A DNA stretch of 54,527 bases, taken from positions 1 to 54,527 of the IMG/VR virus record IMGVR_UViG_3300024496_000043. One strand, given 5' to 3'. Below, piece by piece: positions 39,794 through 54,526 of the stretch. Under the pieces are notes generated by a model. The model ran no database searches. It was not told where the DNA came from and saw only the letters and a list, made by a program, of their open reading frames with translations. The stretch is from a virus. Lineage: Duplodnaviria > Caudoviricetes. The first letter of the stretch is position 1. Each line of letters starts with the position of its first letter. Both the position numbers and the translations under genes were made by a program.

Positions 39794-40852
39794 TTAGATG
39801 ATCGACTTCTTTTTTAAATCGATAAATTCATGCAAGTTGTGGAATATATATGGATCGGTACCAATCTTGGCAAATTCTTTTAAAAATTCAGCGTGTTCTG
39901 GGTGGTTTGTGTCCCATATTTTAATTTTTTCAAACTCTTGAATACTGTATGTTCCCCAGTTATTGATTCTACCAAAAAATATTCTAGCCTTTTCTTTCAA
40001 TATTTTTTTCATAGTATCCGCAAATAGCCCCATTTCTTTATAATTCTGAGATTGTACAACAAATGAAACTTTTATCTTTCTTATGGAAGGTATCGTATAT
40101 ATAAATTCAAGATTGTTTAACAAATTTCCCCAATTCCCACCCAGTCTAGTGATATTTTCATATGTGTATTGTGTACCAGCATCTATACTTATTTCACAAG
40201 ACTCTACATATTTGTGAATATTAGGCATACTTTCCCACATACCCTTATTCCATAAGCTAGCATTAGTATGTAAATGTATATTTTTTAATTTTGGGTATTT
40301 TCCTGGGGTGAAATTTCTAAGATAATTTCTATAAGATACCGAAGCGAATGGATCGGCGGTACCCGAGCAATATATAGTTTCTATAGAATCAGAATAAGCC
40401 TCCTCAAATTCATATATTTTTCTATCTATTTCTTTTATCTCTTCACTGCTTGCCACAATCATTTTAATTCTACAGGAAGGACATTTATAATTACAAGTCC
40501 TATCAAATGACATTTGGAATATCTTTGGGCCGTAATCAACATAACCAGATTTTAAATTTAATATTTTTTCAGATACGTCTTTTCGATGTTGTATTGGACC
40601 AATAAATCCACCATCAAATGTTAATAATTGAGATAAAAATGGACATTGGTGTTTATCACAAAATCTATATGATCCGTCTAATACAGATTCTCTAATTTCT
40701 ACCGCCTCATTTGAATTCCATAAATCTTTTAATGGTACATCATTAGGTAATTCTTTTAATAGCCAACTAGCACAACACATAAAGTTTTTATTTCCATGTA
40801 TTTCTAAAGCCTGGAAAGGAACTGTACATATATAGTTTTTTAAGCCAACCAT
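39794..40852 (-). CDS. Radical SAM enzyme with N-terminal SPASM/twitch-like Cys cluster
   Basis: CTVPF...CC...C...CP N-terminus; CNYKCPSC. Confidence 0.85.
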   Translation of the reverse strand: MVGLKNYICTVPFQALEIHGNKNFMCCASWLLKELPNDVPLKDLWNSNEAVEIRESVLDGSYRFCDKHQCPFLSQLLTFDGGFIGPIQHRKDVSEKILNLKSGYVDYGPKIFQMSFDRTCNYKCPSCRIKMIVASSEEIKEIDRKIYEFEEAYSDSIETIYCSGTADPFASVSYRNYLRNFTPGKYPKLKNIHLHTNASLWNKGMWESMPNIHKYVESCEISIDAGTQYTYENITRLGGNWGNLLNNLEFIYTIPSIRKIKVSFVVQSQNYKEMGLFADTMKKILKEKARIFFGRINNWGTYSIQEFEKIKIWDTNHPEHAEFLKEFAKIGTDPYIFHNLHEFIDLKKKSII

Positions 40853-41506
40853 TTAAATTAAACTTTTACTTTTTGTGGGTATTCTTACTATTTTATGTGG
40901 GGCATCTATCCATAATTTAATACATTTTTCGTATTTTCTTAATCCCAAATATTCGTTTAGTTGATTAATTTTTACAGTATCTTTTTTAATAAAAATATCT
41001 TCATACGTAAACAACGGAAATCCATTTTTAGAAATAGTATCAAGCACTTTTGCTTCGGCTTTTAAATCTTTTTCAAGTTTCTGGATATTTTTCTCATCTT
41101 CAACGGATAGTTCGTAGTATCTTGGTTTATGCCAATTTATGGGTATTTTAGAGTTGTTTGATAATTTTTCGTGAAAGATAATACTTTCGGCTTGCAGTCT
41201 TTTATTCTCTCTTTCCAGTAATATTATTTTGTCAAAAAACGTTTGAAGCCATTTTAAATAATCATCATAATTGTTAAACGATTCGTAAGGGTATCCATCA
41301 TCATCTAAAAAAGTCTTTATAAGTATATTTTTTTTATCTATAATTTTATCTATATTTTTATGTTTATTCTCACTATCTGATGTTCTAAAATTAAATGGCT
41401 CGAACATAACATCAAATTTTTTATTTTCTGAAGTTAAACAACAATTTATATAATTAAATAGTGATGTAGAACCACTTCTAGCGTTACATAATATTGCGAT
41501 CCTCAT
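40853..41506 (-). CDS. Sulfotransferase-fold protein
   Basis: ARSGSTSL PAPS-binding loop, EPFN, LERENK...S, YED. Confidence 0.7.
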   Translation of the reverse strand: MRIAILCNARSGSTSLFNYINCCLTSENKKFDVMFEPFNFRTSDSENKHKNIDKIIDKKNILIKTFLDDDGYPYESFNNYDDYLKWLQTFFDKIILLERENKRLQAESIIFHEKLSNNSKIPINWHKPRYYELSVEDEKNIQKLEKDLKAEAKVLDTISKNGFPLFTYEDIFIKKDTVKINQLNEYLGLRKYEKCIKLWIDAPHKIVRIPTKSKSLI

Positions 41507-42057
41507 ATTAATTTTTTTTCTTTGTCTAGTTTGTAATAATTAAAATCGGTATCGTTAATCCAAATATTAAGTGCGCATCTAAGTCCGTTAAACACTGGCA
41601 TAACCCCATGGTATATTTTATTACCCTCAAATGTAACCCCCTCACCAATATTTAAATGAACTTTAACATCTGAATCTTTTATGTTAACACTTTTTCTAGA
41701 TAAACAAAAATCGCCATCTTCATAACCATCCGAAAGAGATATTACAGTAGTATAATTGGAGGTTTTATCTAAATGTAGATCGAGATATCTTCCATCATAA
41801 TATCTAGTTAAACTTATATTAACATTCTTTATGTTAAACTCACCATAATTAAACCAGAATTCAATTTTTTTTTCTAAATAAAGTTCCTTGATTTTATTTA
41901 TTACCCTATTCTTAAAATTTTCATCATAAATTCTTCTACAATCCCAACTGTTTAATTCGTGCTTATAGTATGAAAATACTTCACCGTTTTGCATTGAAAA
42001 ATCAATTAAATAATCACACTCGTCTTTATCAAAAAATTTATTTACTGAATATTTCAT
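41503..42057 (-). CDS. 2OG-Fe(II) oxygenase (prolyl-hydroxylase-like)
   Basis: HLD...HGV...R facial-triad pattern. Confidence 0.8.
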   Translation of the reverse strand: MKYSVNKFFDKDECDYLIDFSMQNGEVFSYYKHELNSWDCRRIYDENFKNRVINKIKELYLEKKIEFWFNYGEFNIKNVNISLTRYYDGRYLDLHLDKTSNYTTVISLSDGYEDGDFCLSRKSVNIKDSDVKVHLNIGEGVTFEGNKIYHGVMPVFNGLRCALNIWINDTDFNYYKLDKEKKLI

Positions 42058-42875
42058 ATAATATAAGAATTAGGTATAGATGCTTTTTCTAATAATCCGT
42101 TTTTTAAAATAAAACTATATAACTCATCAGCAATTAATTTATAACCATTTTTGTTTGGGTGTTTACCGGCCGTATTTTCTGTCCAATAATTTCCATCCTC
42201 CCAAACATCACTTCTTTTCGTGTCTATCAAAAAGTCTGCAAATGTTTTATCTTTAAATCCCCAATATCTATTTTTATCTATATGTCTTGTATTGTCAACT
42301 TCTTCTATAATATCACTACTTATCATTCCATCAAAAGCATCACAGAAAAGATATCTTATACCCATTCCTTTAAACATAAATTGAAGATATAGTATATAAT
42401 TTTGATTTACTATGTCATAATACGTGTTAGTAAAAAGATCCGTAACATAAAAATCTCTAAAATTTTTCTCTATCCTATTGTATTCGAAGTTTGAATCACT
42501 ATCTTTTTCAAACAAATACCTATATAAAAATCTTTTGTTTTTATATCTTTTACCCCATAAATTAAAATTATTATCTTTTGGAAAGAATGGTAAATTGTCT
42601 CTCAATGATGAGGACCACATTATAACAACAAAATCATCTTTGCCGATGATTTTATTTTTTAATCTTGAACAAATTGAATCGAATATAACATGATTACAAA
42701 AACCACCGACGCCGTCATTTTGAAATTCACATTTAAGTAAATCGGAAAGATGTTTTGGCCAACAATATTTGTGTCTTATAATTGTTCTTTCTTCTGGGAC
42801 TTCAGTTGTTTTTTCTTCATTTATATTTCCACCCACACCTTCGGTCCAGCTGTCACCATAAGCAAACAATTTCAT
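42054..42875 (-). CDS. SGNH/GDSL-like protein
   Basis: YGDSWT, NDGVGG, KHPNKNGY. Confidence 0.65.
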   Translation of the reverse strand: MKLFAYGDSWTEGVGGNINEEKTTEVPEERTIIRHKYCWPKHLSDLLKCEFQNDGVGGFCNHVIFDSICSRLKNKIIGKDDFVVIMWSSSLRDNLPFFPKDNNFNLWGKRYKNKRFLYRYLFEKDSDSNFEYNRIEKNFRDFYVTDLFTNTYYDIVNQNYILYLQFMFKGMGIRYLFCDAFDGMISSDIIEEVDNTRHIDKNRYWGFKDKTFADFLIDTKRSDVWEDGNYWTENTAGKHPNKNGYKLIADELYSFILKNGLLEKASIPNSYII

Positions 42876-42879
42876 AGGT

Positions 42880-43020
42880 TTATCCTAAATGCTTATTTTT
42901 TATTGCGTTAACTACTTCTTGAAATGCTGCTGAAACTTTTGTTTTAAGTTCATTTGATATTGGGGCGATAATTGGTTTAATCACCTGCGCCGGTCTTTCT
43001 ATTCTTTCTTTTTGTGCCAT
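42880..43020 (-). CDS. Small hypothetical (46 aa)
   Basis: Manual: MAQKERIERPAQVIKPIIAPISNELKTKVSAAFQEVVNAIKNKHLG; fills gap with A-rich start context. Confidence 0.6.
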   Translation of the reverse strand: MAQKERIERPAQVIKPIIAPISNELKTKVSAAFQEVVNAIKNKHLG

Positions 43021-53617: not shown

Positions 53618-53620
53618 AAC

Positions 53621-53737
53621 TTAATGTTTATAAGTGAATGGATCTCGTTTTTTAAGTTCCTTTATTTTTTTTTCAAATCTTTTTTTCTTTTTATAGTCTT
53701 GAATTTTGTTTAAAATCCATTGAATTAGTCTTTTCAT
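53621..53737 (-). CDS. Small basic protein (38 aa)
   Basis: Manual: MKRLIQWILNKIQDYKKKKRFEKKIKELKKRDPFTYKH; ATGA overlap with upstream gene. Confidence 0.6.
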   Translation of the reverse strand: MKRLIQWILNKIQDYKKKKRFEKKIKELKKRDPFTYKH

Positions 53738-54414
53738 ATTAGTTTCTTTTCTTTGTAGTTATATTTTATTTTTTCGTTTATTACATCTAAAAAATAATTA
53801 GCCTGCACTATGTGACCTTTAGTTGCAAAATGATAATCAACAATTTTACCGTTTGTTTCGTCAAAAATTCTTGTAGCGCCATGTTGCTCCCTTAATACCA
53901 TTAAAAAATTATCATGATTAGGTATTGTTTTATCAAATGACCATATTAATAATTTCATGCCGATTAGGTCACATATTTTTTTAATTAATTTTTCCCAACT
54001 AATAAGTTCATCAACCCATTTTTGTTCCATTCTATTAACAAGTATTTCTTCTATACTTTTCGAACATATACCATCTATTAATTTTTCTGGAATAAAACCA
54101 GGACCGACCCTCACAAAATCATTTATTTTATTATTAACTAGCCTAAATCTTTCTTTATATGACCATCCGATTATCACAACATCACCTTTTTTGAAGCTAT
54201 CAACGTTATCACAAAATGAATGAAATATTTCATAGTTTGATGATCCCCCAATAGCCACATTATTTAAGTTAAGACCTAATTTTTCTGAAAGTAATTCGGG
54301 CCATGTCTTAGGAAATTTACCACCATTATATTCCTTATATTGATCAAATTCTTTTCTGTCAGAACGTTCATAAAATGCTGTATATGAGCACCCAAAAGTG
54401 TGTAATGTATTCAT
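53734..54414 (-). CDS. SGNH-like protein
   Basis: FGCSYT, WP, NVAIGGSSN, DYHF. Confidence 0.65.
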   Translation of the reverse strand: MNTLHTFGCSYTAFYERSDRKEFDQYKEYNGGKFPKTWPELLSEKLGLNLNNVAIGGSSNYEIFHSFCDNVDSFKKGDVVIIGWSYKERFRLVNNKINDFVRVGPGFIPEKLIDGICSKSIEEILVNRMEQKWVDELISWEKLIKKICDLIGMKLLIWSFDKTIPNHDNFLMVLREQHGATRIFDETNGKIVDYHFATKGHIVQANYFLDVINEKIKYNYKEKKLI

Positions 54415-54415
54415 T

Positions 54416-54526
54416 CTAAATTAATTTAATATTTTCTATAGTATGTAAATTAATTGGTAATGGCATTGAATTTATGATAGTTGTCCATTTTTTTACATAT
54501 TCATATGTGCTTTCATTTAAAGATAA
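54416..54526 (-). CDS. 3' end of a gene starting beyond the window
   Basis: Manual: ...LSLNESTYEYVKKWTTIINSMPLPINLHTIENIKLI*. Confidence 0.55.
   Translation of the reverse strand, partial: LSLNESTYEYVKKWTTIINSMPLPINLHTIENIKLI

What the first reader, a model, noticed from the sequence alone, without database searches (positions are those of the whole stretch)
39794..54526. Shared C-terminal tag (basic/polar-[IL]-[IL]-COOH) on ~13 unrelated proteins of the tailoring cluster
Seen ends: KKKSII (radical SAM), KSKSLI (sulfotransferase), KEKKLI (2OG), PNSYII (SGNH), DNKSII (Cys-rich), MDNSII (sulfotransferase), IKKSLI (2OG), KEKSII (2OG), DGKNLL (halogenase), NTPNIL (DxD), TKKSLI (2OG), KEKKLI (SGNH) and ENIKLI (partial gene). 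The Ser is encoded by TCG, AGT, TCT, AGC and TCA, and two carriers (39794, 44612) are followed by intergenic gaps, arguing for protein-level selection rather than a DNA repeat or overlap artefact. Cofactor-supply genes (cysC, nucleotidyltransferase, DUF2061) and the plus-strand GT operon lack it. Inference: a docking or targeting signal recruiting interchangeable enzymes to a scaffold, compartment or virion, or a shared degron.
Basis: partly seen in the sequence, partly recalled or inferred. Interest (0 to 1): 0.9.

Follow-up and report, generated by a model that had tools for sequence, protein, structure and literature searches.

The report
Shared C-terminal tag on phage enzymes
A set of unrelated enzymes in a marine T4-like phage all end in the same four-residue tail, conserved across hundreds of related phage fragments, which probably acts as a common handle that brings them to one cysteine-rich peptide precursor encoded among them.

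Summary
All 13 listed tails exist. In the region, 12 of 20 ORFs end in [ILVM][IL], against a 3.6% internal frequency (p=5e-13).

The tail is selected at protein level:
- It sits in register with the stop codon, not with the next ATG.
- It occurs in every stop/start arrangement, including 98 unique proteins with no ATG nearby.
- In those 98 proteins, Ile codon use matches the gene bodies.

In about 1 Mb of related IMG/VR loci, families split sharply. Thirteen families, covering at least nine folds, are at least 80% tagged. Eleven are at most 10% tagged. Known relatives (HTVC008M, P-SSM2) lack the tag.

The tagged block always surrounds one untagged protein. It has a Hint/intein-fold domain ending in HN, followed by a 25-33-residue peptide with six Cys and several Trp.

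Best reading: the tail is a recruitment handle that brings tailoring enzymes to this precursor. A degron reading remains open. I found no description in the literature.

The parts
39794..40852 (-). Radical-SAM-like enzyme (weak Pfam hit) ending ...KKKSII. Tag codons 39797-39808. Followed by a 63-nt gap.
   Evidence: Its family (26) is tagged in 6 of 6 unique members.
40853..41506 (-). Protein of unknown family (my family 9) ending ...KSKSLI. Stop TAA directly abuts the next ATG.
   Evidence: Family tagged in 34 of 34 unique members.
41503..42057 (-). 2OG-Fe(II) oxygenase (PF13640) ending ...KEKKLI. ATGA overlap with the next gene.
   Evidence: Family 0 tagged in 110 of 111 unique members.
42054..42875 (-). 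DUF6071 / SGNH-like protein ending ...PNSYII.
   Evidence: Family 5 tagged in 40 of 46 unique members.
43044..44528 (-). The only UNTAGGED protein inside the tagged block (family 3, 494 aa). N-terminal domain of about 295 aa with weak ATP-grasp leads. Hint/intein-fold domain at about 295-466 ending in invariant HN. Then a 28-residue peptide with six Cys and four Trp, ending ...QSKL. Candidate substrate and/or hub.
   Evidence: Alignment. Model pLDDT 66. Foldseek against hedgehog, intein and BIL structures: E 3e-7, target TM 0.76-0.81. ATP-grasp leads. 0 of 42 unique members tagged.
44612..44899 (-). 95-aa protein with six conserved Cys (phrog_13558, unknown function) ending ...DNKSII. Followed by an 83-nt gap.
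   Evidence: Family 4 tagged in 36 of 39 unique members; the other three end FL, FL and LM.
44896..45687 (-). Protein of unknown family (family 1) ending ...MDNSII. The likely true start is the ATG of a TAATG junction at 45687, giving an N-terminus like its homologues. The mechanical ORF call started at 45723.
   Evidence: Family tagged in 42 of 49 unique members; the other seven end LF, FF or IF.
45687..46256 (-). 2OG-Fe(II) oxygenase (PF13640, 189 aa) ending ...IKKSLI.
   Evidence: 118 of 120 orthologues at 54-99% identity keep the tail.
46258..46911 (-). 2OG-Fe(II) oxygenase-like protein ending ...KEKSII.
   Evidence: Family 2 tagged in 35 of 41 unique members. Five of the other six end LV, FI or LF, and one is cut by a contig end.
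46892..48154 (-). Flavin-dependent tryptophan halogenase (PF04820, E 3e-91) ending ...DGKNLL. Its last codons overlap the next gene by 20 nt.
   Evidence: Family 6 tagged in 33 of 33 unique members, mostly KELI.
48118..49101 (-). Three untagged supply genes: DUF2061 (48118-48333), cytidylyltransferase-like (48305-48670, weak hit) and APS kinase (48667-49101).
   Evidence: Unique members tagged: 0 of 25, 0 of 27 and 1 of 24.
52877..53617 (-). 2OG-Fe(II) oxygenase-like protein ending ...TKKSLI.
   Evidence: Family 40 tagged in 5 of 5 unique members.
53734..54414 (-). SGNH-like protein (family 5) ending ...KEKKLI. Followed by a 116-nt gap.
54416..54526 (-). 3' end of a gene cut by the window edge, ending ...ENIKLI, stop TAG.
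12574..13209 (-). SGNH-like paralogue (family 5) far outside the cluster, ending ...KIKII. Shows that the tag follows the enzyme family rather than the position.
49130..50074 (-). Probably not a true carrier.
   Evidence: Family 16 tagged in 2 of 9 unique members.

Best explanation
The tails are a real C-terminal short linear motif selected at protein level. The consensus is K(-7)..K(-4)-[S/T, less often K/N/E/Y](-3)-[L>I](-2)-[I>L](-1)-COOH, on a 6-12-residue Lys/Asn-rich linker appended to otherwise unrelated folds.

The motif marks the enzymes of one phage pathway: P4H-like 2OG oxygenases, a Trp halogenase, radical-SAM-like and SGNH-like proteins, and several unknown families. Their genes flank a single untagged protein. 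That protein carries a Hint/intein-fold domain ending in HN, followed by a 25-33-residue peptide with six Cys and several Trp.

I read the tail as a shared recruitment handle. One pathway-specific receptor would bind its free hydrophobic C-terminus. The most likely receptor is the N-terminal (possibly ATP-grasp-like) or Hint part of that precursor protein. Any enzyme that acquires the tail would then be brought to the peptide it modifies. This inverts the usual RiPP logic, where the substrate carries the recognition peptide.

Shown: the motif, purifying selection on it, its family-wise and lineage-wise distribution, and its co-location with the Hint protein.

Inferred: that it binds anything, and what it binds.
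For: (1) Register and arrangement. Among 1242 ORFs of related loci, tagged ORFs occur with ATGA overlap (191), TAATG (132), abutting stop-start (22), gaps of 1-10 nt (127), 11-30 nt (27) and over 30 nt (79), and before an opposite-strand gene (16).

(2) Codons. For 98 unique tagged proteins with no ATG within 8 nt of the stop, Ile at -1 is ATT 40, ATA 35, ATC 2. Gene bodies use 0.46, 0.43 and 0.11. Only the ATGA class forces NNA codons. Ser at -3 uses both the TCN and AGY codon sets.

(3) Conservation. 118 of 120 orthologues of the 189-aa oxygenase (54-99% identity) keep the tail, while linker positions vary. Of 406 unique sequences in 13 tagged families, 382 match [ILVM][IL] at the C-terminus and 17 more end in other hydrophobic pairs.

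(4) Bimodality. Of 33 families with at least 5 unique members, 13 are at least 80% tagged and 11 are at most 10% tagged.

(5) Pathway specificity. The homologues in HTVC008M lack the tail. Control loci give 1 of 35, 2 of 35 and 3 of 43 ORFs ending that way. In a 164-kb record, 21 of 194 ORFs do, concentrated in the cluster (7 of 12 in the 100-110 kb bin).

(6) Co-location. In 64 further loci found through the Hint protein, 368 of 421 unique same-strand neighbours within five genes are tagged, against 26 of 300 ORFs more than eight genes away. The Hint protein itself is tagged in 0 of 42 unique members. It is absent from 50,697 deposited phage records and from one genome each of 185,579 prokaryote species.

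(7) The enzymes fit the peptide. A Trp halogenase and P4H-like oxygenases sit next to a Trp-, Pro- and Cys-rich peptide.

(8) In the lineage with a divergent long Hint protein, the tails shift to II, LF and FL. F-containing pairs make up 9 of 36 there against 4 of 391 elsewhere.
Against: The fold of the receptor candidate's N-domain is uncertain. Its pLDDT is 64.5, and the ATP-grasp leads are all below significance (E 0.03, E 0.026, atlas scores 0.85-0.86).

Position -3 is largely family-specific rather than shifting together across families within a genome, so there is little independent evidence of co-evolution with one receptor. The F-rich tails of the divergent lineage amount to a single phylogenetic event.

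Co-location does not separate 'binds the Hint protein' from 'acts in the same pathway but is recognised by a host factor'.

Some tagged genes lie far from the cluster (12574-13209; G002 85641-86423). This is compatible with recognition in trans but does not prove it.

Many loci come from related or overlapping contigs. I counted unique protein sequences where stated, but relatedness still inflates the counts.
Confidence: 0.45

Rival explanations
1. The tail is a degron or chaperone handle read by a host machine that recognises non-polar C-termini next to basic residues. Candidates are ClpXP, Lon, FtsH and DnaK. It would limit the lifetime of the enzymes or route them to remodelling.
For: The motif lies at the extreme C-terminus, its last two residues are hydrophobic, and basic residues precede it. 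This resembles in style the C-terminal ClpX signals of the ssrA and MuA classes (recalled, not checked with a tool). A small non-enzyme protein also carries it.
Against: Host proteases are present in every infection. Yet the related phages HTVC008M and P-SSM2 do not tag the homologous enzymes, and the tag tracks the Hint-protein cluster. Keeping a destabilising tail on more than 13 families over deep divergence needs a special reason. No phage-encoded PDZ_2 domain was found in four long records (one Pfam model only).
Confidence: 0.2
2. The Lys-rich linker with a hydrophobic end is a weak tether to the membrane or another location. It would concentrate the enzymes at the inner membrane or at an assembly site.
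For: The tail has a polybasic stretch followed by two aliphatic residues. The cluster lies in the hypervariable host-recognition region that also holds envelope-related genes in pelagimyophages (PMC7029224, passages read).
Against: Two aliphatic residues are few for membrane insertion. The linkers contain Pro and show no amphipathic periodicity by eye. The requirement for the exact C-terminal position and the preference for L-I order fit recognition of the carboxylate better than lipid binding.
Confidence: 0.1
3. The tail has no function as protein. It would be a nucleotide-level feature inherited with each cassette: an A/U-rich translational-coupling context for the next gene, a RegA-type operator, or a recombination junction used to shuffle cassettes.
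For: About three quarters of tagged genes have a start codon within 8 nt of their stop, and ATA is over-used at -1 in the overlap classes. SD-like motifs are rare upstream of starts (15 of 275 after tagged genes), so A/U-rich leaders may matter. Junction recombination could explain how unrelated genes acquired the tail.
Against: The motif is in register with the stop across four different stop/start spacings. It is kept in 98 unique proteins with no nearby ATG, with neutral synonymous usage. Untagged genes in the same operons have the same overlaps. Intergenic start contexts show no comparable positional motif. WTW codons for Phe are almost absent, while CTN, TTG and ATC codons occur.
Confidence: 0.05
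4. The tail is a cargo signal for loading the enzymes into the phage head or another shell, analogous to encapsulin cargo-loading peptides.
For: It is a short C-terminal tag shared by unrelated enzymes, and T4-like capsids share the HK97 fold with encapsulins (established knowledge).
Against: The enzymes need O2, 2-oxoglutarate, reduced flavin, SAM or PAPS, which are not available in a capsid. No shell gene was seen among the cluster proteins scanned. T4 uses N-terminal targeting sequences (recalled).
Confidence: 0.05

Closest known systems
RiPP leader peptide / RRE recruitment of tailoring enzymes
   Same: Several unrelated tailoring enzymes would be brought to one ribosomal precursor through a single short peptide-domain contact. 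The gene block holds a precursor-like protein with a Cys/Trp-rich C-terminal peptide and fitting enzymes.
   Different: The shared peptide sits on the enzymes and not on the substrate. The 'leader' is a folded protein of about 466 residues with a Hint domain. No RRE was detected. Binding is untested.
C-terminal targeting tripeptides and tetrapeptides of eukaryotes (peroxisomal PTS1, dilysine ER retrieval) and class I PDZ ligands
   Same: A motif at the extreme C-terminus, dependent on the free carboxylate and shared by many unrelated enzymes, is read by one receptor. 252 of 446 unique tails have S or T at -3 and an aliphatic last residue.
   Different: This is a phage of bacteria with no organelle. 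The consensus differs. No PDZ_2 domain was found in four phage records. The comparison with these motifs is recalled, not tested.
Encapsulin cargo-loading peptides
   Same: A short C-terminal tag on a flexible linker marks functionally linked but structurally unrelated enzymes.
   Different: No shell gene in the cluster, a different consensus (recalled), and enzymes that need diffusible co-substrates.
Short-linear-motif docking in NRPS/PKS assembly lines (C-terminal SLiM with beta-hairpin docking domain)
   Same: A C-terminal tail of a few residues mediates specific non-covalent docking between biosynthetic proteins.
   Different: Those tails pair one subunit with the next. Here more than 13 families share one tail, which implies a hub. 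No docking domain has been identified.
ClpX C-terminal recognition signals (ssrA-like and MuA-like classes)
   Same: Terminal non-polar residues with upstream basic residues at a free C-terminus.
   Different: The distribution is pathway- and lineage-specific rather than general. The consensus is not the same (recalled). Degradation is untested.
Bacterial intein-like (BIL) / Hedgehog Hint autoprocessing domains (for the untagged protein)
   Same: Hint fold with invariant terminal His-Asn. This predicts cleavage of the peptide that follows.
   Different: The +1 residue is S, A, T, G or P, so splicing is not generally possible. The domain is fused to a six-Cys peptide and to an N-domain of unknown family. 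Pfam Hint models do not detect it.

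Membership tests
Start-context / gene-overlap artefact | Motif keeps a fixed distance to the downstream start codon | tested here: not met
   The same tail occurs with ATGA, TAATG, TAA-ATG and TAA-N-ATG junctions and with gaps. It is in register with the stop.
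Start-context / gene-overlap artefact | Motif absent where no gene follows closely | tested here: not met
   98 unique tagged proteins have no ATG within 8 nt of the stop. 79 ORFs have gaps over 30 nt, and 16 precede an opposite-strand gene.
Start-context / gene-overlap artefact | Synonymous sites constrained | tested here: not met
   Without a nearby ATG, Ile at -1 is ATT 40, ATA 35, ATC 2, matching body usage of 0.46, 0.43 and 0.11.
RiPP leader/RRE system | Ribosomal precursor with a core peptide next to the tailoring genes | tested here: inconclusive
   The Hint protein ends in a 25-33-residue peptide. 47 of 47 distinct versions have exactly six Cys and 2-4 Trp. No chemistry is known.
RiPP leader/RRE system | Recognition sequence on the substrate, RRE on the enzymes | tested here: not met
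   The shared sequence is on the enzymes. No RRE-type Pfam hit in the proteins scanned.
Encapsulin cargo-loading peptide | Encapsulin shell gene in the operon | tested here: not met
   No such Pfam or PHROG hit among the cluster proteins scanned.
Encapsulin cargo-loading peptide | Short C-terminal tag on a flexible linker of cargo enzymes | tested here: met
Class I PDZ ligand | [S/T]-x-hydrophobic-COOH | tested here: inconclusive
   S 142 plus T 110 of 446 unique tails. K, N, E and Y fill -3 in the rest, in a family-specific way.
Class I PDZ ligand | PDZ-domain partner available | tested here: not met
   PF13180 was found in 0 of 4 long phage records while all 14 control genomes matched. Other PDZ models and the host were not searched.
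ClpX-type C-terminal degron | Non-polar residues at a free C-terminus | tested here: met
   399 of 406 unique sequences in tagged families end in two hydrophobic residues.
ClpX-type C-terminal degron | Protease-dependent instability conferred by the tail | not testable with these tools
   Needs a degradation assay.
Hint / intein-like domain (untagged protein 43044-44528) | Hint fold | tested here: met
   Foldseek E 3e-7 to 1e-5 against hedgehog, BIL and intein structures, target TM 0.7-0.8. Model pLDDT is only 66.
Hint / intein-like domain (untagged protein 43044-44528) | Terminal His-Asn | tested here: met
   H465 and N466 are invariant in 30 sequences.
Hint / intein-like domain (untagged protein 43044-44528) | Nucleophile at +1 (needed for splicing) | tested here: not met
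   The +1 residue is S, A, T, G or P. Cleavage without splicing remains possible.
ATP-grasp (N-domain of the untagged protein) | ATP-grasp fold or profile match | tested here: inconclusive
   Top but non-significant hits to ATP-grasp-fold proteins in PDB (E 0.03) and BFVD (E 0.026, and rank 7). The fold class of those hits is recalled, not stated in the tool output. Atlas rows carrying ATP-grasp Pfam families score 0.85-0.86. No Pfam or PDB sequence hit.

The most novel reading that the evidence does not exclude
Marine T4-like phages carry a plug-and-play peptide-maturation system with inverted RiPP logic. The precursor is a large protein with an ATP-grasp-like domain, a self-cleaving Hint domain and a six-Cys, Trp-rich peptide, and it acts as the hub. 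Every tailoring enzyme carries a four-residue C-terminal 'address' that the hub reads. Any enzyme gene that acquires the tail joins the pathway. In the boldest form, the ATP-grasp-like domain acts on the free carboxylate of these tails, as RimK-, TTL- and LysX-type ligases act on protein C-termini (recalled). The product would be a halogenated, hydroxylated, disulfide-rich peptide resembling a conotoxin or cyclotide, made during infection.
Probability: 0.2. Interest if true: 0.95.

Novelty: new variant of a known kind. Interest (0 to 1): 0.82.

Why it matters
If the tail is a recruitment address, it is a minimal, portable rule for assembling multi-enzyme tailoring pathways. It would also explain how these hypervariable phage islands swap enzymes freely. 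The tail gives a simple sequence criterion for finding pathway members of unknown fold; at least five tagged families have no annotation.

It also points to a class of phage-encoded, heavily modified Cys/Trp-rich peptides that has not been described. These are released by a Hint domain, in abundant ocean phages (207 IMG/VR loci). Four residues would be an attractive tool for enzyme co-localisation. If the tail is instead a degron, it would be the first case of a phage timing a whole pathway through a shared C-terminal signal.

Tried and rejected
Overlap or start-context explanation: rejected.

DNA repeat: megablast of the region against phage records found nothing. Tails differ at synonymous sites.

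General feature of phage homologues: rejected. HTVC008M, P-SSM2 and AG-345-O18 lack the tail.

PDZ partner in the phage: PF13180 is absent in 4 records. A fifth locus, L139, was not held and so was not searched.

Receptor test by complex prediction: not possible.

Concerted S-versus-T evolution at -3 across families within genomes: examined, and found mostly family-specific. It is not used as support.

Loci without the Hint protein (15 of 74): 14 are short or truncated contigs. L003, L042, L053 and L068 lie in records that are 3-9% complete, so they say nothing.

Sequence identity of the Hint protein's N-domain: no Pfam hit and no PDB sequence hit. Fold leads are only weak.

First attempt to find relatives with the radical-SAM-like protein: no pattern match.

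Literature: four full-text searches and passages of PMC7029224 gave no description of the tail or of the Hint-peptide protein. Only search listings and abstracts were seen for the other papers. Supplements were closed and not consulted; those of PMC7029224 might list these gene families.

Limits of method: ORFs were called mechanically (longest ORF of at least 70 aa, overlaps of at most 60 nt). Families come from single-linkage BLASTP (E 1e-8, at least 60% coverage). Loci partly overlap the same contigs.

Full report
**What the window is.** The window is the whole assembly, one contig of 54,527 bases, with about 30% G+C. Its tryptophan halogenase is closest to those of Pelagibacter phage HTVC008M (40% identity) and of T4-like cyanomyophages. 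Other genes hit phage families for thymidylate synthase and glycosyltransferases. It is therefore a fragment of a marine T4-like myophage. The region resembles the hypervariable 'host recognition cluster' described for pelagimyophages, which holds glycosyltransferases and radical-SAM cassettes (PMC7029224, passages read). That paper does not mention C-terminal tails.

**The observation.**
- In the region, 12 of 20 ORFs of at least 70 aa end in [ILVM][IL], against 5 of 44 elsewhere in the window (Fisher p=1e-4).
- The same dipeptide occurs at 3.6% of internal positions of these proteins (binomial p=5e-13).
- The four-residue form ends 10 of 20 ORFs against 0.3% internally (p=1e-20).

**Protein or nucleotide?** Several tests agree that selection acts on the protein.
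- The motif is in register with the stop codon whatever the spacing to the next ATG. ATGA, TAATG, TAA-ATG and TAA-N-ATG junctions all occur in the window.
- Among 1242 ORFs from 73 related loci plus the window, tagged ORFs appear in every arrangement, including gaps over 30 nt (79) and before opposite-strand genes (16). Untagged ORFs share the same overlaps.
- For 98 unique tagged proteins with no ATG within 8 nt of the stop, the last Ile is encoded by ATT 40, ATA 35 and ATC 2. This matches usage in the gene bodies. Only in the ATGA class is the last codon forced to end in A, and it is then ATA, TTA or CTA.
- Ser at -3 uses both the TCN and AGY sets, and Thr is the main alternative.
- Start contexts in intergenic regions are merely A/T-rich, with no comparable positional pattern. 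SD-like motifs are rare throughout.

**Conservation.**
- 118 of 120 orthologues of the 189-aa oxygenase, at 54-99% identity, end in the tail. S or T fills position -3 in 116 of them. Linker positions vary.
- Among 150 representatives clustered at 50% identity, there are two classes. One stops a few residues after the conserved core Trp. The other carries an extension of about ten residues ending in the tail (53 of 150 by the strict pattern).
- The consensus from 446 unique tagged proteins is K at -7 and -4; S, T, K, N or E at -3; L over I at -2; and I over L at -1.

**Distribution.**
- In about 1 Mb of IMG/VR loci found through the oxygenase, 630 of 1242 ORFs end in the tail.
- Families are bimodal. 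Of 33 families with at least five unique sequences, 13 are at least 80% tagged, 11 are at most 10% tagged, and 9 lie between.
- The tagged families are four 2OG oxygenase families, the halogenase, a radical-SAM-like family, an SGNH/DUF6071 family, a 95-aa six-Cys protein, a DUF6734-like family and four families without annotation.
- Of 406 unique sequences in those 13 families, 382 match the pattern. Another 17 end in LF, FF, IF, LV, FI, FL or LM. One is cut by a contig end, and six SGNH paralogues truly lack the tail.
- The untagged families include APS kinase, DUF2061, a cytidylyltransferase-like protein and a carbamoyltransferase.
- Known relatives lack the tail: HTVC008M oxygenases and halogenase, and 1 of 35, 2 of 35 and 3 of 43 ORFs in control loci.
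- In one 164-kb record, 21 of 194 ORFs end this way, 7 of them among the 12 ORFs of the 100-110 kb bin that holds the cluster.

**The untagged protein in the middle.** Gene order is conserved. A run of tagged genes, one untagged gene of about 495 codons, then more tagged genes.
- The untagged protein is 43044-44528 in the window.
- It has no Pfam, PHROG or PDB sequence match.
- Its model (pLDDT 66) matches hedgehog, bacterial intein-like and intein structures over its C-terminal half, with E from 3e-7 and target TM 0.7-0.8.
- The domain ends in an invariant His-Asn. A peptide with conserved Cys, Trp, Pro and Gly positions follows.
- In 64 further loci, 47 of 47 distinct peptides have exactly six Cys and 2-4 Trp, and are 25-33 residues long.
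- The residue after Asn is not a conserved nucleophile. I therefore expect cleavage rather than splicing. This is inference.
- A divergent long form carries a larger Cys-rich segment followed by a borderline Peptidase_S74 chaperone domain (22.6 and 21.2 bits against a cut-off of 22).
- The N-terminal 295 residues give only sub-threshold leads, all to ATP-grasp-type proteins.
- The protein was not found in deposited phage genomes or in the prokaryote genome collection. It has 207 relatives in IMG/VR.
- Around it, 368 of 421 unique same-strand neighbours within five genes are tagged, against 26 of 300 ORFs further away.

**Interpretation.** The enzymes that carry the tail are those expected to act on a peptide: Trp halogenation, Pro or Asn hydroxylation, radical chemistry. 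The supply enzymes and the presumed substrate do not carry it. The tail and the Hint protein also occur together, and both are absent from related phages.

This favours a pathway-specific reader of the tail over a general host factor. The Hint protein is the obvious candidate, being the only untagged member of the block. I therefore propose a recruitment handle (confidence 0.45 for docking to a pathway-specific partner; lower for that particular partner).

No binding test could be run. The only hint of co-variation is a single lineage whose tails contain Phe and whose Hint protein is divergent. Position -3 is family-specific rather than changing in concert across families.

A degron or chaperone signal read by the host remains the main rival (0.2). 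Membrane tethering (0.1), head packaging (0.05) and a purely nucleotide-level role (0.05) are less likely.

**Comparison with known systems.** The nearest analogies are C-terminal targeting peptides that many unrelated enzymes share, such as PTS1 and encapsulin cargo peptides. Others are short-motif docking in assembly lines and RiPP leader-RRE recruitment, here with the roles of enzyme and substrate reversed. It meets the positional definition of such tags. The other defining features were either not met (a shell gene; a phage PDZ partner, searched with one Pfam model in four records; an RRE) or could not be tested (protease-dependent instability). See the membership table.

**Verdict.** This is a real, strongly selected and widespread C-terminal tag on phage tailoring enzymes. 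It is tied to a previously undescribed Hint-domain precursor of a Cys/Trp-rich peptide. Its function is not yet shown.

Noticed in passing
window 43044-44528 (-); also L004:7054-8547, L007:11737-13227 and 207 IMG/VR loci: A protein of about 495 aa with a Hint/intein-fold domain ending in invariant HN, followed by a peptide of 25-33 residues with exactly six Cys and 2-4 Trp. It looks like a self-cleaving precursor of a modified peptide. No Pfam, PHROG or PDB sequence match, and not found in deposited phages or prokaryote genomes.
   Followed up: partly
L009:3621-5555, L022:1204-3114: Long variants (636-644 aa) of the same protein. A Cys-rich segment of about 100 residues lies between the Hint domain and a borderline Peptidase_S74 (tail-fibre chaperone) domain, so it is flanked by two self-processing modules. 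Enzyme tails in these loci are enriched in II, LF and FL.
   Followed up: partly
window 28642-32027 (-): Three tandem paralogues (368-377 aa, phrog_1417, unknown function) all end in ...TSSGHCGWR followed by Q, G or N. This is a second conserved C-terminal ending in the same window.
   Followed up: no
window 32045-39730 (-): A 2561-aa ORF immediately downstream of the tagged block. It has only coiled-coil-type Pfam hits (DUF7310, DUF16 and others). It is not conserved next to the cluster in other loci.
   Followed up: no
window 44612-44899 (-): A 95-aa tagged protein with six conserved Cys in a pattern like CxxC...CxxCGCP...C, always just upstream of the Hint protein. Possibly a metal-binding accessory factor.
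   Followed up: partly
window 11455-12570 (-): The thymidylate synthase homologue is 371 aa, but the 266-position Pfam profile spans residues 6-370. It therefore carries about 100 inserted residues.
   Followed up: no
window 48667-49101 (-) and homologues: APS kinase is usually untagged but has its own recurrent endings (KLDL, RIDL, KLFL). In 4 of 35 loci (1 of 24 unique sequences) it ends in KSLI, an apparent recent gain of the tag.
   Followed up: partly
window and related loci, 24 nt upstream of starts: Shine-Dalgarno-like motifs are rare: 38 of 278 intergenic starts, 36 of 151 after untagged genes and 15 of 275 after tagged genes. Leaders are simply A/T-rich.
   Followed up: partly
window 46892-46911: The last codons of the halogenase, including its tail, overlap the first codons of the next oxygenase gene by 20 nt in another frame.
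   Followed up: no
L005:2813-4447 and syntenic genes upstream of the APS kinase: An untagged module precedes the tagged block in many loci. It holds a carbamoyltransferase (PF02543/PF16861), DUF6734 proteins and SGNH-like proteins, and may be a separate pathway.
   Followed up: no
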